Positions 35,701 through 40,574 of a DNA stretch of 64,000 nt are shown piece after piece. Source of the stretch: a virus. A program made the position numbers and the translations under genes. Position 1 is the stretch's first letter, and the number at the start of each line of letters is the position of its first letter. The notes under the pieces were generated by a model. It was not told the origin of the DNA. It made no database searches and worked only from the letters and a program-made list of their open reading frames with translations. The stretch spans positions 1-64,000 of the IMG/VR virus record IMGVR_UViG_3300034691_000049, one strand, 5' to 3'.

Positions 35701-36883
35701 CTCGCGGCCGGCTTCGTACCTGCGCGTGGCTGCTGATAGCAATGATGCAACCTTGGCTGAGGCATATCGCCTGCTGCCGGAGAGCACCAAGAAAGAAATC
35801 AAGAAAGTCTGGAAAGAAGAGGCGATGTACGTCCCTGCTGACCAAATCGACCTGATTTTTGGCTATCGGAAATTTAGCCTGACCAACGCATTCGCTGCGC
35901 TACCGACTGACCGTAACTTGTTCGAAAAGACCCTTGTTGGGATCACTTCGGCCATGTTCGGTGAGAAAGCTGCACTGCGGGTTGGTCAAGCTGAAGACAT
36001 CATCCAGGCGCTGGTCAAAGAGATGAAAGACATCCTCGTTGTGAAGAACGTGCTGACCTTGGCAGGCAACATCATGTCCAACATGACTTTGCTGGCTTGG
36101 GAAGGTGTTCCACTGCAAAAGGCTGTCGCTTCGCACGCAATCGCAATCAAAAGTGCTCTCGATTACCGTAAGGATTCGAAACGCTTGATGCAGTTGCAGC
36201 AATCGGTTGATATCGGTTATTACGCCGACGTTGCCGGTGCTGAAGCTGAAATGGTTGAGTTGCGGGATCGTTTGGCGCGTAACCCGATCAAACCGCTGAT
36301 TGATGCCGGCCTTATGCCGACAATCGTAGAAGACGTTGAAGTTGACGATGATCGTTACACCTACAAGGCTCAACTGGAGCGTAAGGTAGAACGGTTCACT
36401 TCTAAGGTGCCAGCATGGATGCGTACTGTCGGTCGTCAGGTCTACATGACTCACGATACCGCCACGTACAAATTCTTGAGCCAATCTACTCAATTGTCTG
36501 ACTTGGTTGCACGTTATGCGCTCTTTGAGCACGCAACTACTCGCAAGAAAGATCCTTTGAGCAAAGCTGACGCATTGCGTCTGGCTGAGGACAGTTTCGT
36601 AAACTACGACCTGCCTTCGCACCGTACCCTGCAATATCTGAACGATATGGGTATTGTGATGTTCACCAAGTATTACTTGCGAATCCAGAAGGTGATTATG
36701 CGCTTGGTGCGGGAACGCCCAGCACGCGGGCTGATCTTGGCCACACTGGAACATTTCATCTCTGGTTTGCAGTCTGTGATGGATTCTAGCTGGGTTGACA
36801 AGATCGGTAACAATCCACTGCAAGACAGCGCACTTGGTTACCTGGGTTCGTTGAAGGAGTTGCCTGCAATCAAACTTTTGTAA
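26735..36883 (+). CDS. virion-encapsidated RNA polymerase (N4 gp50-like)
   Basis: 3382 aa, no Cys seen on reading. Motif A EVDGVTNG, motif B RNIIKKPLTALMFG, motif C LNVHDA. Confidence 0.95.
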   Translation: MANGDENNGFDQLFPAGLPAAKTGGFRPLFDLSAKADQVAAASVEKKQALVNKLGYDVEDTVGAAINFGASFVSGASRLAGNLTTLPIDAISGLAQGSVPEEQVQAYNRLQTGQASDADRALLDQTAPLDDGVPQTYLQRLQGTQGLQEVAQNVDDFFNIDSIVDQTNRERLSRDLKENTGDGVNRLRYAAEAFKIGHYKDALTEGFGGLDSTLSEALKTAASSPVATAEYVVENIPQLLAAAYSAPVMAASNAGYGYDAYREGVRQYFDQNNGQLPNANERAKMGLFAASAALAEQVGDASMLRGFRAAGTGTSSKAMAAAAGIVGAMTREGVTEGYQTYAESKAKLEDASLEEIVEGATIGALVGGNFHGAVELGHLGGPKQDPAARAASTEAFTNAVESGDVSSLADATSPTYNPVRAVEALHQLNLTPGADVDANLAKADEIQQNVTADVSSIQARLDNTSPEAVARIGAIVDQLEAAGADQAQIAEMRDIHEAVSSYTPAQRKADQARLTELESQLGQIYSASERLRVDSSPEQAEVEAIATQAQTGDTQAADRLLTLTMINPDSVDTQIAESLAQSEALSEPQRTAMRLFSEAQVATNALKGLTGVRSDIATGGDGFKGISQYRNAIRMALANGNEDAARSQVDGIRAFADSRVSKLNAITTAFKQVKGTDNSINIVRNEQGEWGPTDLKGSALKKAGGLVVDARSFKLRDGVAAEADALTKTAAAMEALVNAAPSPVSAPVVQPTAAVQGEVTPATPEVAATPTVDPAPVAPVADKAPTSAVTEEAAVTPEEAPKAAESAPANVGQLTVIGERTGAAVTADNYRSVNLVSELFEQQAGNETDASVRPLVAVKDFASAIRAGEVQAKDFIDQKGDLTGPQTQALNAFFNFAQFSAQAIRNQFKVTESRAKRPDFFYRDMAQFLQNADGQIDENVATAVSFGMFSWANENATQLRNSDEAINAILLNELDSEISSAAYKELSLIGTRESVVASQLGGRIVQAMGLRVTQQGTAAELSKLEASIGTRAIAAMEKLGIVERVQLSDVKLQALMDSNEKGDPRVKHTFVRVKSEEVNGKREASPITKRIRERNVGSQSVVNKLMSVQAAGIEPSYTPIKFDQAFAKRTGQEVPKGLATILNKEGAKPHVVRQNMWHVWGKLSKQALYEMGGVVSTTDNPTHVENLDSRRAKNDGLIQQVDNLDTFINAMSADPSTNGLEQEMFFGRSVWKPQRVGLTANVVNPQTSKIHRHMLAMKSWNASIDLADAASMNNFKLRVLEAFGKKTEATNTPVVLAGYDAVVSNPAIQAGVDALVDVLRDTGETNENAIVAAVKAGGENFHSFDALVALAEQRIAEQDGKPAFETSMMGEVDGVTNGPMLSLLMLGAKGFETMNQGGFFQLDSPFTQFNDFHGVDGNLDLYESNIAGALNRLQGRNVNMLQAMQTITGQLQTAEGNVTSKGRNIIKKPLTALMFGSNPKTAVEGMADGFVEAIYSRIEDAAAKRDDAAITELFTAVNTLLRSPKAALDAKMGYARALETKLNDQQKAALKKSFYELLGKPTEDALADNYATFIARRNVINQTAQLSFDLFNAVRDGVTEFVEQSSPEVARNNSGEAIRTLTKEQLAQVQELMGDMAPILQTAMSQAAKQREAGMYMAKSQRKLDSSLPYEQEVAFGELVNTIAPDGQMQGIGSSRVSSSRTEDIDPGVMPFITSIHSSDSNISHTAIGDNDVLNVHDAHGVGLNDIATAGQRLNKATFDTLLNYSSPTAMANMLDEVLAGVSKVMQNPELAALIQPKLREKMIQRTEKKRGGIAEQLTAIRETAKQADTDKLKMMAELKAIGQYATEGGSYLVNDADREAASKKLGEVGSSFNEAAESVAEMLDVAAAVDPAVYQPGQTAVLSNTSVTTLAPATSLNTLASLEQTEAVAKVIDSMVSGNRTLADAVQVLPEHQAAEVINAVNGASEAKLSVWGQLGSPVVQSDVNLVELLEGNNLTAHNLIDSMVAYVQDPFQRTVLQMAKKGIPANLPVNYVTSETGPEGAFGEGVDKSRGWYAQRNNTEALFVKSPEFVESGITPEMLTHELVHAALANLVDAHEGKNTAVGRAVADLEAIRTKAAEFIDNNGALSAQFRNATANVHELLAWGLTNKAFQRDVLSQIQVEQKNAGLLSGLRKFINSLTTMLFGTNKVSENNGMANLVANAAGLFQEAAAVRDSRSASTHKYEDAVDHINAMTAEQVFDALASVSGTQTDPRHTEYLKNLLNETVDPIYGPYGAFKEQAAANRAFTPMDVFLKAVQTGKLPFSSEATTNAFILSQQEAFVLESVQATVAFAMDQKETLFARQGLENLFKEARATLKPANFHKGVWATASQNEKDIAQAKFDFIFRPQAAITSKNAYLSRFAALGLASAEVRNVMAFSTANLDVPLKSLPWASRLTEIFRRIMTRLSSLATKTTPGQAGNQALSALVEQMVDIEAKRKARFGQDKLGSLDQIETVLSAAGEKVREKADAFGQSKFFRQSRIPGVPFVGAAISTVAGDRLDAVLDRITVTRDHYFKTRQGLMIGIVSEWRGVYDSRRLAAELFKGAKAIEQERKAVIENTASAVNGAFVNQGQDLTQDQRDALTKVFLRTNAQAIAAVKGVSGLRDLMEDPAQMAAYRADLEAQVKAITGNSQYMISQAKDLAHHKVIGGATSANLMLSTGNIAAMYGTKKAGQDAHLVAGLTPLLEQLVGVYGLQYSGDVDVNNAKQVLRTEMNRQDGGNGVEYMLKLHTGLQEKARKDLFAGTEALQQTGYVAEIHDNKIEVLLVSQADVAAHLRAGYEVGTRLQMDPNVKALQGGSRVLMTRRGSGQNALLTGALSFTGMNSKGSSPITEALNMMQGTQTTSAAVRQQIAAAKAGAITDLFNRGPNYDPRNAQSGHMAPTLAPDGRIADYRHLMVEHNRDVLLDRDNSMDQVMGVMAGQITDKVSSASQNADVVRSMYDQYRADYTSRPASYLRVAADSNDATLAEAYRLLPESTKKEIKKVWKEEAMYVPADQIDLIFGYRKFSLTNAFAALPTDRNLFEKTLVGITSAMFGEKAALRVGQAEDIIQALVKEMKDILVVKNVLTLAGNIMSNMTLLAWEGVPLQKAVASHAIAIKSALDYRKDSKRLMQLQQSVDIGYYADVAGAEAEMVELRDRLARNPIKPLIDAGLMPTIVEDVEVDDDRYTYKAQLERKVERFTSKVPAWMRTVGRQVYMTHDTATYKFLSQSTQLSDLVARYALFEHATTRKKDPLSKADALRLAEDSFVNYDLPSHRTLQYLNDMGIVMFTKYYLRIQKVIMRLVRERPARGLILATLEHFISGLQSVMDSSWVDKIGNNPLQDSALGYLGSLKELPAIKLL

Positions 36884-36888
36884 ATAGA

Positions 36889-36962
36889 TGGAACGCGGGG
36901 GGAGACGAACCCCCGTTCTCTCGCTTGTTAGCAAGGTGTCCTACCATTAGACGACGCATCCC
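36889..36962 (-). tRNA. atypical tRNA-like gene (anticodon undetermined)
   Basis: Acceptor GGATGCG/CGCGTTC, D arm GTCT-AATGGTA-GGAC and T arm GGGGG-TTCGTCT-CCCCC. The anticodon arm does not give a 7-nt loop. Confidence 0.6.
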
Positions 36963-36970
36963 ATAACTGA

Positions 36971-37041
36971 TGGAGGTGGCAGGAATCGAACCTGCGTCAA
37001 ACGCTTAGAAGGCGCCTGCTCTACCATTGAGCTACACCCCC
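36971..37041 (-). tRNA. tRNA-Arg(UCU)
   Basis: GGGGGTGTAGCTCAATGGTAGAGCAGGCGC-CTTCTAA-GCGTTTGACGCAGGTTCGATTCCTGCCACCTCCA; canonical cloverleaf. Confidence 0.9.
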
Positions 37042-37042
37042 A

Positions 37043-37072
37043 CAAAAAACCCCCTACTTTGGGGGTTTTTTA
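37043..37072. terminator. bidirectional terminator-like hairpin
   Basis: AAAAACCCCC-TACTTT-GGGGGTTTTTT. Confidence 0.75.
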
Positions 37073-37263
37073 TTGCATGACTGCCAGAACTCTTTGATTC
37101 CGGCCCAAACCAGCACACCAATGAAGAAGATCACGCATAAGACGGCTAACAAGAAGCCAATGATCTTAATTGCGTAACCAAACACAATGAATGACGTGAT
37201 TAGGGCAAGCAGCGCGCCAATGCTGAAGCAAATCTTCAACAGGCGCAGACCTGCCCGGATCAA
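37054..37263 (-). CDS. small two-TM membrane protein
   Basis: 69 aa, two hydrophobic helices, basic tail. Confidence 0.65.
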   Translation of the reverse strand: MIRAGLRLLKICFSIGALLALITSFIVFGYAIKIIGFLLAVLCVIFFIGVLVWAGIKEFWQSCNKKPPK

Positions 37264-37598
37264 TGCTTAGTCGGGCCAATTACAACAACCCGGCCAATAG
37301 CCGCACCATTGATGTACATGATGCCATCGTCGCTGATGGTGAAGCCCTGGGGCAGTTTAGAGCCAGATTTCTTTCCCGGTTCAGCTTTTTCAGGCTCAGC
37401 AGGGGTTTCGGCAGGTTCGGTGTTATACCTGCCGGACGGCACATCGCTCTTGACGCTACTGAACAGCTCAGCGGCGGCAACAGCCAATGTCTTCGATTCA
37501 TTGTGCTGGTTGATGTCGTAGAGGTCTTTTGCTGCACTCGCGAGCAAACTGGCTGCTTGTGCCGCTGCAAGCAGATCACGGTTACATTGTTCACACAT
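37260..37598 (-). CDS. hypothetical protein
   Basis: Likely start is MCEQCNR at 37598, with an AAGGA SD. Confidence 0.7.
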   Translation of the reverse strand: MCEQCNRDLLAAAQAASLLASAAKDLYDINQHNESKTLAVAAAELFSSVKSDVPSGRYNTEPAETPAEPEKAEPGKKSGSKLPQGFTISDDGIMYINGAAIGRVVVIGPTKH

Positions 37599-37611
37599 AA
37601 TGCATTCCTTC

Positions 37612-38570
37612 TGTTGGTGGGTGTTCTGGAAGTACATCTACCGCGGCTTCCCATGGCAACACTCACTACTGAGTGGCAGATGTACCACCAGAACACCATC
37701 TAAGTGCAAACCTCTCTTACGAGTCAGCTTGCGGAGATAATGTTCCGGGCGAGTAACCATCTCACAACTTTATAGGTTATTAGCCACAAACTTGCTTGTT
37801 CGTGTACAACTGACTTCGGCTGAAGTTATGTTGAGATTTAAATTCATTATTCCCCTGCCCGTCAGGTCAGAGGTACGCTAATACGGCTAACTTGCACGCT
37901 CGCGTAACCACATTTCTGTTTTTACCAAATTCAGCACTTACTCGTACTGTTAGGTACAGCGGCGGATCTTTTTAATACCCTAGGGGGTATTGGGGAACAC
38001 ACCGGCGTAACAGACCACTTCCAGTTACAAATGGTCGTTATCCCTCCCGGTATGCTCCCCAATACCACCGTAAACGGCGATATTGGGTTCGATCTTATGT
38101 TCGAACAGACATACCGACTCTATGCTCGTCGGGTCAGCAGCCCCTGCCCGGGACAAGGGTTCAAATGAGATTGGTGATGTCGGTAGTCACGGTCGGTCAT
38201 CACAAGCGCGTGAACGCTCAGCTTTACCTTCAATCTCAACCTGGGTGGCAGCATGATCGGTGCTACACCTGATCAGCTTCAGCTCTCATCCCACAGTTAG
38301 GATGACTTTCGCACAGCGCTATGAGGCTGATGCCTTGCTGCCAAATTAGGTGGCACTTCAGCTTTGTTTCTGTACCTGCCGTCGCGACGGCGTTTCTGAT
38401 GTCCAGAAGAAGTGCCATAAATTTCGGCTCGTTGTTTTCCAAACAGTTTTCGCGGTAACAAACGTCGTTCTGTTCGCCAACTTCAGTTGGTTTTGCTGTT
38501 CAGTACCGATCACAGCATTATCCGATCTGTATTTACAGGAGCACGAATGACACAGGCCCCTCCTGCCTTT
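37612..38570 (-). ncRNA. candidate large, highly structured non-coding RNA
   Basis: About 950 nt with no credible ORF and many nested helices: 37620-37629/37688-37697, 37986-38005/38047-38066, 38166-38173/38231-38238, 38247-38253/38336-38342, 38351-38359/38409-38417. Plus-strand A/C oppositions become G.U pairs on the minus strand. Confidence 0.65.
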
Positions 38571-38571
38571 T

Positions 38572-39042
38572 TTATACCGGTATATGGTCCGGGGTCGCAT
38601 TAACACCGATCTCGGGAGGCCGAGACGATGTTGCTACGATCTTGCTTCGCATTTCACGGCCACGGGCTGAGCCCTTATCCCATTCCATGCGATTGAAGTC
38701 GTCACCTTCAGGGAAGGCATTGACCAGTTGTTCTGGGTCCGGGACAGTCAGTGCCTGTTCCAAACCAAGGTTGTAAGCTGCCGTCGTGACCGACGGTACT
38801 GGGTCCGGCGAAGTGCCAGTCAGTTCGTACTGGGTCATGTACCCCACATAGGAGACATTGATCAGCACAGCCGCTTCGCCTAATTTGCGCTGCTCTTTCG
38901 CAGCATTCAAGATCGGGATCGACAGACTGCGCTTGTCAGACCAGACGTATGCACTGGCCGGCATGTAACTACCGACCTGTGCGACTGACCATACCGCAAG
39001 AAACCAGTGACGCTTGATGCTGCTGGGGTCTGCCTTGGCCAT
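38572..39042 (-). CDS. hypothetical protein
   Basis: 156 aa with GAGG SD; C-terminal AYNLG...NAFP...EWDKG is Rmf-like. Confidence 0.7.
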   Translation of the reverse strand: MAKADPSSIKRHWFLAVWSVAQVGSYMPASAYVWSDKRSLSIPILNAAKEQRKLGEAAVLINVSYVGYMTQYELTGTSPDPVPSVTTAAYNLGLEQALTVPDPEQLVNAFPEGDDFNRMEWDKGSARGREMRSKIVATSSRPPEIGVNATPDHIPV

Positions 39043-39085
39043 GTTCTACCTCTGGTTTGCCCTGGTTGCCCAGGGCGTTGCCTGA

Positions 39086-39463
39086 TCAGTCGAACAGGTT
39101 GTCGTCTTCGCCAGCGGCAGCAGGGACTTCAGCCAGGGCTTCAGTCGTGGTAGTCACAGGGACTTCCGCCGCTGCTTCGGCAACCTGCGCAGCTTCGCTT
39201 ACAGCCCCGGCTGGTGCAGTGTCCGGGACTTCGGCAAGCGGTGCAGAGGTGGTCACGGTTTCGGTCGCGTCGGATTTCGACTTTGGGGCAACCGGCGCTT
39301 CCGGCTTCGGGTCGGTGTCCAGGGTGCAGATCAGCTCTTTGGTGCCGCGCTTGAAGCTGAAATCGACGGAAGCTTTGCCCGGTTCGAAGGCAGTCATGCC
39401 TTTATTGCGCAGGTCGTTGATCAGGGCAGTTTCGAGGTCAGCGTGGGTCAGAATCAGTTGCAT
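39086..39463 (-). CDS. N4 gp46-like protein with an acidic low-complexity tail
   Basis: MQLILTHADLETAL...; ends EDDNLFD. Confidence 0.65.
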   Translation of the reverse strand: MQLILTHADLETALINDLRNKGMTAFEPGKASVDFSFKRGTKELICTLDTDPKPEAPVAPKSKSDATETVTTSAPLAEVPDTAPAGAVSEAAQVAEAAAEVPVTTTTEALAEVPAAAGEDDNLFD

Positions 39464-40023
39464 AATGCGGTTCCTTTATGGAATTGAATGAGTTGTTTGT
39501 ACTGGTCTGTGAGCAGACCCGCATAAATCGCGCCGATGGCGTCAGCCATGTGTTCGGCGTCACCGAGCAGGATTTCTCCTTTCGGTTTCCGGGGCCAGGG
39601 GGCTTCCGGGTGTTTTGCCACAGCCCAAGCGATCATTTGCTTTTTGGTTGCCGTTCGGCTGCCAACAGTCGCAAGTTTGACCTCATTGGGCGTTACTTCA
39701 AAAAATTGTGATTTGGCGCGTAGACCGCCCAAAACCCCAATGCAGATGCCAGAACAGAGCGAGGCGCGGGCGCTTTGACTACCTTGCGGAATCTCGGCGA
39801 AGTTTAAGCTCGCTGCCATGAAAGGAGCCACGCCCTCATATAACTGGTTTGCCGTGCGCAGATCTTGTGAATTCTGCCGCACCTGCTTTCCTTCGAGCGA
39901 TTCAGACCGCACAACCCGGAGAGTCTTGATGGTCACGATACCTGTGTCGGTATCTATCATACCGCCAGCTATGCCCCAATTCCGTGAGGAAGGGTCATGG
40001 CCGGCGACAGATAACCGAGCCAT
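39454..40023 (-). CDS. RuvC-like Holliday junction resolvase
   Basis: GHDPSSRNWG, FAEIPQGSQ, ATKKQMI and EHMADA are RNase-H-fold catalytic motifs. Confidence 0.85.
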   Translation of the reverse strand: MARLSVAGHDPSSRNWGIAGGMIDTDTGIVTIKTLRVVRSESLEGKQVRQNSQDLRTANQLYEGVAPFMAASLNFAEIPQGSQSARASLCSGICIGVLGGLRAKSQFFEVTPNEVKLATVGSRTATKKQMIAWAVAKHPEAPWPRKPKGEILLGDAEHMADAIGAIYAGLLTDQYKQLIQFHKGTALCN

Positions 40024-40574
40024 TACACACCAGCGCGAGCAAGGCGGCGTTGGAGCACTTCGACGTAGGACTTCATCAGCCCGTGTTGTTCGCGAAGGTC
40101 AGCAACCTCGTCATCTGACAGATTCAAGCTGGAAAGTTCGCCGCCGTCCAGTTTTGCTAGGAATTCAGACAAACCCATCAGACGAGCGGCAACCTGGAAC
40201 ATCTCGGTGATAACGCGCTGCACATGGTCAGGAAGTTCGCGCTGTTCCTGAGTCAGTGGGCGATTACCCCGGTGGATGTCCTCAGCCAGCATGAAGCCGG
40301 CCAGCGGCCACAGTTGGTCACGTGCATCGCGCATTGCCAGTTGTTTGCCCAGTGCTTCGTCGTAATTCTCCGGGCATACACTGCCCAGGTTCTTACCGAC
40401 GACGGTGAGGCCGTTGTGCAAGGTCAGGATGCAAAGCAGGATCGAAGGTTCGATCTTGATCAGCTCCGTGGACTTGATCATGGCGTCCAAAGCAGCCGGT
40501 GTAACACGCGGGGCATTGGTGAGGCCTTTGGCTTGAATCTGGGACTCAAGCGCTTGTTCGGCGGGTGAAGACAT
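40023..40574 (-). CDS. N4 gp49/Sf6 gp66-family domain fused to a crAss001_48-like helical domain
   Basis: APRVTP...LCILTLHNGLTVVG...PENYDEALG...QLWPLAGF, followed by HVQRVITE...REQHGLMKSYVEVLQRR. Confidence 0.75.
   Translation of the reverse strand: MSSPAEQALESQIQAKGLTNAPRVTPAALDAMIKSTELIKIEPSILLCILTLHNGLTVVGKNLGSVCPENYDEALGKQLAMRDARDQLWPLAGFMLAEDIHRGNRPLTQEQRELPDHVQRVITEMFQVAARLMGLSEFLAKLDGGELSSLNLSDDEVADLREQHGLMKSYVEVLQRRLARAGV

What the first reader, a model, noticed from the sequence alone, without database searches (positions are those of the whole stretch)
37612..38570. Candidate giant (~950 nt) ornate non-coding RNA upstream of the tRNAs
Seen: the longest stretch without a credible ORF in a gene-dense genome, tiled by nested multibranch helices. 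Domain 1: GGTGTTCTGG/CCAGAACACC (37620/37688) enclosing GTACATCT/AGATGTAC and CACTCA/TGAGTG. Domain 2: long-range GTGCAA/TTGCAC (37704/37892) and ACCTCT/AGAGGT (37710/37869) enclosing ATCTCA/TGAGAT, with AGTCAG/CTGACT as a possible pseudoknot. Domain 3: a 20-bp helix 37986-38005/38047-38066 whose only two plus-strand mismatches are A/C, i.e. G.U pairs on the minus strand, extended by TAAC/GTTA and GACCA/TGGTC. Further domains: TGAGATTG/CAATCTCA enclosing GTGATG/CATCAC; GGCAGCA/TGCTGCC enclosing TGATC-GGTG/CACC-GATCA and TCATCC/GGATGA; TGGCACTTC/GAAGTGCCA; CAGGAG/CTCCTG. The strand implied by the wobble pairs matches the flanking genes and tRNAs. Established: giant phage RNAs such as GOLLD and ROOL are of comparable size and often lie near tRNA genes. 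I cannot assign this one to a known class, and I am not aware of such an RNA in N4-like phages.
Basis: partly seen in the sequence, partly recalled or inferred. Interest (0 to 1): 0.88.

Follow-up and report, generated by a model that had tools for sequence, protein, structure and literature searches.

The report
Modular structured RNA island, N4-like phage
A gene-free kilobase in a Pseudomonas N4-like phage encodes a string of conserved folded RNA modules of unknown function that match no catalogued RNA family, and it looks more like a cluster of RNA elements than one giant RNA.

Summary
Window 37599-38571 is non-coding. It is the longest ORF-free stretch of the window, and 97 of 105 indels against relatives are not multiples of three. 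It folds far better than shuffles on both strands.

Ten related IMG/VR contigs and phage phCDa keep an ORF-free gap at the same position.

The 3' 570 nt form about 17 local helices. Of 119 pairs, 40 carry compensatory changes, against 24.1±2.7 in shuffles. Wobble pairs and alignment-fold energy favour the minus strand, the strand of the flanking genes.

The 5' 400 nt are a mosaic of self-contained modules that differ between relatives.

Rfam gives nothing here, so it is not GOLLD or ROOL.

The syntenic gap of phage LUZ7 is a published hotspot of small RNAs (PMC9163698).

Best reading: a modular structured-RNA island with two candidate conformational switches. Expression and function are untested.

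This scan found the same family earlier in two related genomes.

The parts
37599..38571 (-). Whole ORF-free structured-RNA island, between the stop of the 156-aa gene (38572-39042) and the start codon of the 112-aa gene (37260-37598)
38420..38571 (-). Module M1: four or five hairpins (CAGGAG/CUCCUG, GCUGU/ACAGC, CCAAC/GUUGG and others). Shared with L003, L008, L002, L005 and L011; replaced by other sequence in L009, L004, L006 and phCDa
   Evidence: 38 pairs, 5 compensatory, 6 sequences
38352..38416 (-). 'CAGAAAC' module. Covarying closing helix P1 and hairpin P2, with conserved junction strands ..CAGAAAC / AGGUACAGAAACAA... Free-standing here; sits in the apex of the long helix in L008, L009, L005 and L011
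   Evidence: (15 pairs, 8 compensatory)
38236..38334 (-). Module M3: four-way junction closed by UGGCAGCA/UGCUGCCA. Shared only with L003
   Evidence: 2 sequences, so no test of covariation
38166..38228 (-). Module M4: hairpin UGAGAUUG/CAAUCUCA with inner GUGAUG/CAUCAC. Near-identical in 4 phages. Absent as a clean 80-nt deletion in a metagenomic relative
   Evidence: (joint 38165 to 38246 in run X20)
38079..38115 (-). 37-nt segment GGUAUGUCUGUUCGAACAUAAGAUCGAACCCAAUAUC containing hairpin GUUCGA/UCGAAC. Identical in the 9 sequences of alignment A2; L011 differs at 2 positions
37974..38087 (-). Four-segment alternative-pairing element. A 38079-38087, B 38058-38066, C 37986-37995, D 37974-37980. 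Either three hairpins (A:B, distal helix, C:D) or one 20-bp helix (B:C plus distal helix, 37986-38005/38047-38066) with a variable apex
   Evidence: both forms within 0.2-5 kcal/mol in 9 of 10 sequences, 9 kcal/mol in phCDa, helices 6 and 7
37698..37973 (-). Domain 2: a run of local covarying hairpins, including GCAAGCU..GGUUUGC with a GUAA or UUCG cap, GUGAG/CUCGC, and hairpins with RAGUNA loops
   Evidence: helices 8-14
37739..37748 (-). Segment X (CCGGAACAUU). It can pair with Y (37688-37697), the 5' strand of the outer helix of domain 1, instead of Z (37620-37629)
   Evidence: 10 pairs, 99% paired; column 544 covaries with both partners
37620..37697 (-). Domain 1: 10-bp outer helix plus 11-bp inner helix carrying two small hairpins and the invariant loop GCCAUGGGAAGC. 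It ends 8 nt upstream of the AAGGAA ribosome site (37606-37611) of the next gene
   Evidence: L026 keeps the pairing with a different inner-helix sequence
36890..37042 (-). Downstream on the same strand: tRNA-Arg(TCT) 36969-37042 and a second tRNA-like gene 36890-36961

Best explanation
Window 37599-38571 is a non-coding island of structured RNA, read from the minus strand like the genes on both sides.

It has two parts.
- A conserved 3' core of about 570 nt (38166 down to 37599). It is a chain of about 17 local helices. It includes a near-invariant 37-nt hairpin segment, two sets of mutually exclusive pairings (candidate conformational switches), and a 21-bp bipartite helix that ends just before the ribosome-binding site of the next gene.
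- A 5' part of about 400 nt assembled from self-contained modules that relatives carry in different combinations and positions.

I read it as a multi-module precursor rather than one closed giant RNA.
- It is transcribed with the downstream small genes and tRNAs.
- Its long helices (about 20 bp, the size of RNase III substrates) and acceptor-like closing stems serve as processing and stability elements, so that several discrete small structured RNAs are released.
- The 3' domain acts in cis on the next gene.

Shown: absence of coding, conservation, covariation, strand and modularity.
Inferred: transcription, processing into several RNAs, any switch behaviour and every function.
For: NON-CODING
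- 97 of 105 indels against the window are not multiples of 3, and no stop-free frame is shared by all relatives.
- No conserved ORF in the homologous intervals of 8 loci.

CONSERVED
- Same synteny (vRNAP, small membrane gene, small gene, GAP, 156-aa gene, RuvC-like gp46-like gene) in L002-L009 and L011 and in L026.
- Parts of the gap are more conserved than the flanking proteins, which are 38% and 57.5% identical to those of phCDa.

STRUCTURE
- 119 pairs, 96.8% of cells paired against 88.6±0.5 in shuffles.
- 40 compensatory pairs against 24.1±2.7 (0 of 500 shuffles as high) and 3-9 in slid controls.
- Domain 1 and the CAGAAAC module each pass on their own.
- Hairpin caps alternate between GUAA and UUCG.

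STRAND
- Alignment-fold energy -141.0 on the minus strand against -116.0 on the plus strand.
- In the 77 pairs predicted on both strands: 23 G.U against 5 A.C cells.
- Helix 14 needs two invariant G.U pairs.

MODULES RATHER THAN ONE RNA
- No supported long-range helix.
- Modules are present, absent or relocated.
- M4 is missing as a clean 80-nt skip, and M2-M3 are replaced by 144 other letters, in contigs of relatives.
- A real tRNA-Arg sits inside the homologous gap of L026.

PRECEDENT
- The syntenic gap of LUZ7 (orf69|orf70) is a late 'transcription hotspot' giving sRNA1-3, mostly under 250 nt, one apparently made by processing (PMC9163698, passages; synteny).
- Syntenic gaps of other N4-like lineages also fold unusually well: LUZ7 z -8.8, L057 -7.3, L028 -5.1. 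Coding controls gave -0.9, -2.8 and -0.9 (14 shuffles each).
Against: - No transcript data. The RNA-library contigs that hold parts of the stretch also run into the flanking genes, come from relatives, and may be DNA.
- No sigma-70-like promoter and no minus-strand intrinsic terminator was found in 36700-39300 by the simple scan. Discrete transcription units as in LUZ7 are therefore not visible here.
- The covariance model of domain 1 does not detect the LUZ7 gap (4.1 bits, E 1.4). The LUZ7 parallel is therefore positional and architectural only.
- Three of six other syntenic gaps tested are not clearly structured (z -2.5, -1.9, -1.6).
- A chain of local helices does not exclude tertiary contacts or pseudoknots that would make the 570-nt core one folded unit. 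With about 10 related sequences such contacts could not be tested.
- The sequences are related, so the shuffle controls overstate significance. The slid controls are the fairer comparison.
Confidence: 0.6

Rival explanations
1. One large ornate RNA. The 570-nt core, or the whole 970 nt, folds as a single unit of a new class. It would be comparable in size and phage/tRNA association to GOLLD or ROOL, with swappable peripheral modules, and would act in trans.
For: - Size, density of helices and strong folding z-scores.
- The core is kept as a block, in the same order, in 10 sequences.
- A long scaffold helix carries variable apical inserts, which is typical of large RNAs.
- Invariant single-stranded segments could make tertiary contacts. 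The AGUC/GACU candidate is invariant.
- tRNA genes lie nearby.
Against: - No helix closes the whole or joins distant domains.
- No match to GOLLD, ROOL or any other of 4227 Rfam models at E up to 10.
- The 5' third is mosaic.
- A tRNA is embedded in L026.
- The LUZ7 precedent gives small RNAs (PMC9163698).
Confidence: 0.2
2. A DNA-level element: a replication origin, a cluster of the DNA-hairpin promoters that N4-like vRNAP and RNAPII use, or a recombination hotspot. The hairpins would be selected in DNA.
For: - N4-like early promoters are DNA hairpins, and so are LUZ7 middle promoters (GC-rich stem of at least 6 bp, loop of 3-4 nt, start about 15 nt downstream) (PMC9163698).
- GCCGTCGCGACGGC (38378-38391) resembles that description.
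- Plus- and minus-strand z-scores are equal.
- The 37-nt near-invariant block could be a protein-binding site.
- The mosaic pattern implies frequent recombination here.
Against: - Helices of 10-20 bp in branched arrangements with conserved loops are unlike the short promoter hairpins.
- G.U pairs are asymmetric towards the sense strand, and some helices need G.U (helix 14).
- GNRA and UUCG caps are features of RNA.
- Both covariance models score the minus strand far above the plus strand: 92.6 against 18.4 bits and 130.7 against 40.2 bits.
Confidence: 0.08
3. Decaying remnants of former genes or of a tRNA array, with no present function.
For: - The locus between the gp46-like gene and vRNAP varies widely in length among N4-like phages: 64 to 3586 nt in the 47 of 58 loci listed where a vRNAP frame was found.
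- phCDa and L005 carry T-arm-like hairpins that are not recognised as tRNAs.
- AAGCTGA, frequent in the coding DNA of this phage, also recurs here.
Against: - Compensatory changes maintain pairing.
- Blocks inside the gap are more conserved than the neighbouring proteins.
- No tRNA model hit in the gap at E up to 10.
Confidence: 0.05
4. Several unannotated small protein genes.
For: ORFs of 40-82 codons exist in the gap. One frame (…VIGTEQQNQLKLA…) is shared by sequences that are about 90% identical in M1.
Against: - 97 of 105 indels shift the frame.
- No frame is open in all relatives.
- The differences inside that M1 frame are compensatory for an RNA hairpin (GCUGU/ACAGC becomes GGUGU/ACACC).
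Confidence: 0.02

Closest known systems
LUZ7 orf69|orf70 intergenic small-RNA hotspot (sRNA1-3; Putzeys et al. 2022, PMC9163698; passages read)
   Same: - Same genomic position in an N4-like Pseudomonas phage: after the gp46-like gene plus two genes, and before two or three small genes and the convergent vRNAP gene.
- ORF-free and very strongly folded (z -8.8).
- Ends in a multibranch hairpin with a 12-bp closing helix directly before the ribosome site of the next gene.
   Different: - LUZ7's gap is about 400 nt, against 973 nt here.
- It shows a sigma-70-like promoter and terminator hairpins by eye (my reading). None was found here.
- No detectable sequence or structure homology.
- The LUZ7 RNAs were seen experimentally. 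Nothing is known about expression here.
GOLLD (RF01998) and ROOL (RF03087), large ornate RNAs often found in phages near tRNAs
   Same: Size range, phage context, tRNA genes nearby, and a conserved part next to a variable part. The family properties are recalled, not tested.
   Different: No covariance-model match at E up to 10, nor in 6 relatives at E up to 1. No long-range architecture was detected.
Stable RNAs co-encoded with phage tRNA clusters (T4 species 1 and 2 RNAs; recalled, no call)
   Same: Structured non-coding RNAs of unknown function on the tRNA strand of a lytic phage, expected to be cut from a common precursor.
   Different: No sequence relation was tested. Here two protein genes lie between the island and the tRNAs, and the island is much larger.
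Phage T7 intercistronic RNase III processing hairpins (recalled, no call)
   Same: Bipartite helices of about 20 bp with an internal loop, placed just upstream of a ribosome site in a phage that uses T7-like RNA polymerases (domain 1; long helix).
   Different: T7 sites are single hairpins of about 50-60 nt. Here there are about 17 helices over 570 nt plus modules, and cleavage is untested.
Leader-type attenuators and riboswitch expression platforms (four-segment 1:2/3:4 against 2:3 pairing)
   Same: Segments A, B, C and D can form A:B plus C:D, or B:C, with near-equal energy in 9 of 10 sequences. C:D covaries (sequences printed).
   Different: The 3:4-like hairpin is followed by A-rich sequence, not U-rich, so it is not an intrinsic terminator. 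No leader peptide or known aptamer is present.

Membership tests
GOLLD / ROOL (Rfam RF01998, RF03087) | Match to the family covariance model | tested here: not met
   cmscan of 36500-39500 against all 4227 Rfam models at E up to 10. Neither family is listed. Six relatives' loci at E up to 1: none.
GOLLD / ROOL | A single RNA of about 600-800 nt that forms multimeric assemblies | not testable with these tools
   Needs transcript mapping and cryo-EM.
tRNA, tmRNA, RNase P RNA, group I/II introns, OLE, 6S and other Rfam families | Match to the family covariance model inside 37599-38571 | tested here: not met
   The only matches in the gap are three miRNA-hairpin models at E 4.7-7.7, far below their gathering scores. 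ARAGORN finds nothing in the gap.
LUZ7-type intergenic sRNA hotspot of N4-like phages | ORF-free gap at the syntenic position (gp46-like gene, two genes, gap, small genes, convergent vRNAP) | tested here: met
   (RuvC-like/gp46-like protein at 39454-40023)
LUZ7-type intergenic sRNA hotspot of N4-like phages | Homology of sequence or structure to the LUZ7 gap | tested here: not met
   Model R2: no hit in L014 or L075 with default filters. With filters off: 4.1 bits, E 1.4. nhmmer with A3: no hit.
LUZ7-type intergenic sRNA hotspot of N4-like phages | Abundant small RNAs (under 250 nt) made late in infection | not testable with these tools
   Only contigs of relatives in RNA libraries were available, and they show no transcript ends.
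RNase III processing site (T7-like) | Helix of about two turns (about 20 bp) with an internal loop, between cistrons | tested here: met
   Domain 1 has 10 + 11 bp separated by a 2x2 internal loop and ends 8 nt before the ribosome site. The long helix is 20 bp.
RNase III processing site (T7-like) | Cleavage by host RNase III | not testable with these tools
   Needs an experiment.
Transcription attenuator / riboswitch expression platform | Mutually exclusive conserved pairings | tested here: met
   A:B/C:D against B:C. X:Y against Y:Z, with one column covarying in both pairings.
Transcription attenuator / riboswitch expression platform | Intrinsic terminator (hairpin plus U-run), or a sequestered ribosome site, in one of the two forms | tested here: not met
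   No minus-strand terminator-like site in the gap. C:D is followed by AAAAAG. I found no pairing of the ribosome site with either freed strand (inspection).
N4-like DNA-hairpin promoters | Short GC-rich stem (at least 4-6 bp) with a 3-4 nt loop, start site 13-15 nt downstream (PMC9163698) | tested here: inconclusive
   GCCGTCGCGACGGC (38378-38391) fits loosely: 5 bp with a 4-nt loop, or 6 bp with a 2-nt loop. However, it is P2 of a covarying RNA module with conserved flanks. The other helices are too long and too branched.

The most novel reading that the evidence does not exclude
The conserved ~570-nt core, with its exchangeable peripheral modules, is one large trans-acting RNA of a new class. 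It would be a phage 'RNA machine' with two built-in conformational switches and a near-invariant 37-nt recognition segment. It would be made late in infection and would act on a host or phage component, for example as a decoy against an RNA- or tRNA-targeting defence, or as a regulator of the takeover of the host. The shuffling of modules would then reflect an arms race.
Probability: 0.15. Interest if true: 0.85.

Novelty: new variant of a known kind. Interest (0 to 1): 0.62.

Why it matters
N4-like phages are a large and well-studied family, with three RNA polymerases and hairpin promoters. Their non-coding RNAs are almost unknown. The only report I found is an uncharacterised small-RNA hotspot in LUZ7.

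This work shows four things about the same locus in another genus.
- It holds about a kilobase of RNA structure kept by selection.
- It contains a reusable 65-nt module with conserved junctions.
- It contains a 37-nt near-invariant segment.
- It contains two candidate switches.

That gives concrete, testable elements for a phage whose close relative, phCDa, is a cultured isolate. It also suggests that a structured-RNA island at this position may recur across Schitoviridae: 3 of 6 other lineages tested fold unusually well there. If the RNAs act in trans, they would add to the few known RNA-based phage functions.

Tried and rejected
REJECTED OR LEFT OPEN AFTER TESTING
- Homology to LUZ7's gap: not found.
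- More family members:
  - The metagenome scan with a 22-mer gave one bacterial contig (L012). It shares only the short motif, in the leader of an ibpA-like gene.
  - The genome scan with the 20-mer hairpin gave one Amycolatopsis hit, taken as chance.
  - A looser gapped pattern gave 117 or more chance hits. nhmmer recognised only L172, which is the L026 contig.
- Copies of the CAGAAAC module outside the clade: none in 78 sources (836,833 bases). I left out of that search the loci the model was built from (L002, L003, L005, L006, L008, L009, L011), their duplicate fetches (L015, L017, L018, L021, L022, L024, L027) and L001 and L010.
- Expression: four runs were laid (X5 and X24 RNA, X20 probably DNA, X4 DNA). 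All were contigs of relatives. Parts of the gap are held, but so are flanking genes, and no ends or strands can be read. No conclusion on transcription.
- Rsm/CsrA sponge idea: the GGA motifs in loops are not conserved (inspection). Dropped.
- K-turn reading of CUGA/UGAUGA in M4: the bulge has 4 nt instead of 3, and the other AAGCUGA sites do not fit. Dropped.
- AAGCUGA enrichment: the heptamer is over-represented in the whole window (34 against 9.2 expected). Its four copies in the gap are therefore weaker evidence than they look.
- Neighbouring proteins give no functional hint.
- ORF-based survey of gaps in 58 N4-like loci: spurious ORFs hide known gaps, so I used only the distances.
- Literature on an N4 origin of replication: the search and passages of PMC4496689 gave no location.
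They bear on the LUZ7 comparison.
Full report
CONTEXT

The window is most of a 72.8-kb virus record. It belongs to an N4-like phage whose closest named relative is Pseudomonas phage phCDa (Schitoviridae, Shizishanvirus).

The 3382-aa virion RNA polymerase gene runs on the plus strand to 36883. Converging on it from the right, all on the minus strand, are:
- a gp49-type gene (40023-40574);
- a RuvC-like 'gp46-like' gene (39454-40023);
- genes of 125 and 156 aa (the latter at 38572-39042);
- the stretch in question;
- a 112-aa gene (37260-37598; the start is taken from the phCDa annotation and an AAGGAA site);
- a 69-aa membrane protein gene;
- tRNA-Arg(TCT) at 36969-37042;
- a second tRNA-like gene at 36890-36961.

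The gap between genes is therefore 37599-38571, 973 nt.

IS IT NON-CODING?

- It contains the longest stretch of the window without any ORF of 60 aa or more on either strand: 646 nt, against 298 nt for the next.
- In an alignment of the 3' 570 nt with nine relatives, 97 of 105 indels against the window are not multiples of three. No stop-free frame is shared by all sequences on either strand.
- The one frame that looks conserved in module M1 differs between clades by changes that are compensatory for an RNA hairpin.

RELATIVES

- Exact-motif scans of IMG/VR found eight contigs with a 28-mer and one more with a 19-mer. One of them is phCDa itself.
- All have the same gene order around an ORF-poor interval of roughly 0.85-1.06 kb. 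Four of them carry two extra ORFs (148 and 67 aa) upstream of it.
- A profile scan with the gp46-like protein returned 80 N4-like loci. Among these, nhmmer found the RNA only in the known contigs and in L026/L027, whose gp46-like protein is 72% identical.
- In L026 the gap is 770 nt. It holds a normal tRNA-Arg(TCT), followed by recognisable homologues of the last two domains.
- Blocks inside the gap are far better conserved than the flanking proteins, which are 38% and 57.5% identical to phCDa's. A 37-nt segment (38079-38115) is identical in the nine sequences of alignment A2 and differs at two positions in L011.

STRUCTURE OF THE 3' CORE

- The whole gap folds at -349.8 kcal/mol (z -5.8) on the minus strand and -320.5 (z -6.3) on the plus strand.
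- On the ten-sequence alignment of 38166-37600, RNAalifold predicts 119 pairs in 17 helices.
- Counted independently, 96.8% of cells are paired, against 88.6±0.5 in shuffles. 40 pairs show compensatory changes, against 24.1±2.7 (0 of 500 shuffles as high). Sliding the partners by 1-3 columns leaves 3-9 such pairs and 37-44% pairing.
- The structure was derived from the same alignment and the sequences are related, so these numbers lean in its favour. The margin over the slid controls is nevertheless large.
- Domain 1 (37620-37697) was tested on its own alignment including L026. It has 27 pairs, 96.7% paired, 5 compensatory pairs, and three different Watson-Crick pairs at one position. L026 keeps a 13-bp inner helix with a wholly different sequence.
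- Hairpin caps switch between GUAA and UUCG.

- Domain 1, the 20-bp helix with its two minus-strand G.U pairs, the closing helix of the module at 38352-38416 and the CAGGAG/CUCCUG hairpin are all confirmed.
- The helices of M3 and M4 exist but cannot be tested, because there is too little variation.
- The long-range closure proposed for domain 2 is not supported: 73.8% paired against 73.1% in shuffles. Competing local hairpins covary instead.
- A scan of all column pairs for conserved helices spanning more than 60 columns found only parts of the long helix, one alternative pairing (below) and one weak candidate with broken cells.

STRAND

- The alignment folds better as minus-strand RNA (-141.0 against -116.0 kcal/mol).
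- In the 77 pairs predicted on both strands there are 23 G.U cells against 5 A.C cells.
- Helix 14 contains two invariant G.U pairs beside covarying pairs.
- The covariance models of the two best-defined elements score the minus strand at 92.6 and 130.7 bits, and the plus strand at 18.4 and 40.2 bits.
- This is the strand of the flanking genes and of the tRNAs.

MODULARITY OF THE 5' PART

From 38571 to 38167 the window has four modules.
- M1 (38420-38571) is shared with five relatives and replaced in four others.
- M3 is shared only with L003.
- M4 is about 98% identical in four phages whose neighbouring modules differ. It is missing as a clean 80-nt skip in a contig of a relative. Another relative has 144 other letters in place of M2-M3.
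- M2, the 'CAGAAAC' module (38352-38416), has a closing helix and a hairpin that covary strongly: 8 of 15 pairs compensatory, and 24 cells against 8.1±2.2 in shuffles. They lie around two conserved junction strands.
  - It stands alone in the window, L003, L006 and L002.
  - It sits in the apex of the long helix in L008, L009, L005 and L011.
  - It is absent from L004, phCDa and L026.
  - Its model finds no further copy in 78 sources of other N4-like phages.

ALTERNATIVE PAIRINGS

- Segments A (38079-38087), B (38058-38066), C (37986-37995) and D (37974-37980) can form three neighbouring hairpins (A:B, the distal helix, C:D) or one long helix (B:C plus the distal helix).
  - With either form enforced, the energies differ by 0.2-5 kcal/mol in nine of ten sequences, and by 9 kcal/mol in phCDa.
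  - The C:D hairpin forms in all ten with different sequences.
- Segment X (37739-37748) can pair with the 5' strand Y of the outer helix of domain 1, in place of Z. X:Y is 99% paired. The one column of Y that varies covaries with both X and Z.
- These are candidate switches. Nothing shows that they switch. The C:D hairpin is not followed by a U-run.

KNOWN FAMILIES

- Rfam (4227 models) at E up to 10 reports in the gap only three miRNA-hairpin matches far below threshold. Six relatives' loci give nothing in the gap. It is therefore not GOLLD, ROOL, tmRNA, RNase P RNA, an intron, OLE or any other curated family.
- The nearest published thing is positional. In LUZ7 the gap between orf69 and orf70 lies at the same place in the gene order. 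It is described as an intergenic transcription hotspot late in infection, with three abundant candidates sRNA1-3, mostly under 250 nt. Two share a start site, and one probably arises by processing (PMC9163698, passages read).
- That gap folds at z -8.8. The syntenic gaps of L057 and L028 fold at -7.3 and -5.1. Three others fold at -2.5, -1.9 and -1.6. Coding controls give -0.9, -2.8 and -0.9 (14 shuffles, so rough).
- I could show no homology between the LUZ7 gap and this RNA.
- Full-text searches for LUZ7 with sRNA, for Schitoviridae with structured RNA, and for N4-like with non-coding RNA found no description of this RNA.

INTERPRETATION

What is shown: a non-coding, minus-strand, selection-maintained set of RNA structures, with a conserved ordered core and a mosaic periphery.

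What I infer:
- It is transcribed with its neighbours and the tRNAs.
- Its helices of about 20 bp and its closed modules are processing and stability units that yield several small RNAs, as in LUZ7.
- The last domain acts in cis on the next gene.

I give this 0.6. A single large RNA of a new class remains possible (0.2), because tertiary contacts cannot be tested with ten related sequences. A DNA-level role (0.08), decay (0.05) and small ORFs (0.02) are disfavoured by the wobble asymmetry, the covariation and the frame-breaking indels.

EARLIER NOTES OF THIS SCAN

Two follow-ups on related genomes (e1-6035562, e1-6035574) describe the same family and the same LUZ7 comparison. I reached these points before reading them. 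They are not independent evidence.

Noticed in passing
L026:7951-8026: In a relative (gp46-like protein 72% identical) tRNA-Arg(TCT) lies inside the homologous ORF-free gap, upstream of the conserved RNA domains. In the window the same tRNA lies downstream of two protein genes. tRNAs and RNA modules seem to move within this locus.
   Followed up: partly
L007 (phCDa) about 1960-1990 and L005, minus-sense 5' part of the gap (alignment A2, columns 440-655): phCDa has a T-arm-like hairpin followed by an acceptor-like strand ending in CCA (GGGGGUUCGAUUCCCUC GGCAUCC G CCA). L005 has CCAAGUUCGAUUCUUGG. Neither ARAGORN nor Rfam calls a tRNA or tmRNA there. In phCDa a possible 5' partner strand lies about 500 nt upstream. 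I found it by eye, and a chance match is plausible.
   Followed up: partly
L012:5002-5023: A bacterial metagenome contig (gyrB, ibpA-like small heat-shock gene) carries the same 22-mer hairpin, with similar flanks (AGUCGGU..AUGU), in the long leader of the ibpA-like gene behind a sigma-32-like promoter. It may be chance (one hit in the collection).
   Followed up: partly
L011:968-1714: Group I intron model match (41.6 bits, gathering score 50, E 2.6e-7) with a ~490-nt insert, in another part of a related phage genome.
   Followed up: no
window 36890-36961: The second tRNA-like gene scores 37.1 bits with the Rfam tRNA model but is not called by ARAGORN. Its anticodon loop is irregular.
   Followed up: no
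window 37051-37075: A terminator-like hairpin with a T-run on the plus strand lies between the 69-aa gene and tRNA-Arg. A plus-strand vRNAP transcript ending there would run antisense across both tRNAs.
   Followed up: no
window, whole: The heptamer AAGCTGA occurs 34 times against 9.2±2.9 expected, mostly on the coding strand.
   Followed up: partly
L008, L004, L006, L005, L011, L026 (for example L008:3933-4580): Two extra ORFs (148 aa, starting MFGKFAGKLFRGAKK, and a 67-aa membrane protein) lie between the 156-aa gene and the RNA island in several relatives. They are absent from the window, L003 and phCDa. In L009 only the last codons of the 67-aa ORF remain at the 5' edge of the gap.
   Followed up: no
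window 38556-38600 (minus sense) and homologous places: The island begins with a small hairpin over the upstream stop codon, followed by UAUAAAAA (window, L008, L002, L009). This could be a -10-like or phage-polymerase start element.
   Followed up: no
L014:14645-15042 (LUZ7), L057:7044-7641, L028:7701-8257: ORF-poor gaps at the syntenic position in other N4-like lineages fold much better than shuffles (z -8.8, -7.3, -5.1), without detectable homology to this RNA.
   Followed up: partly
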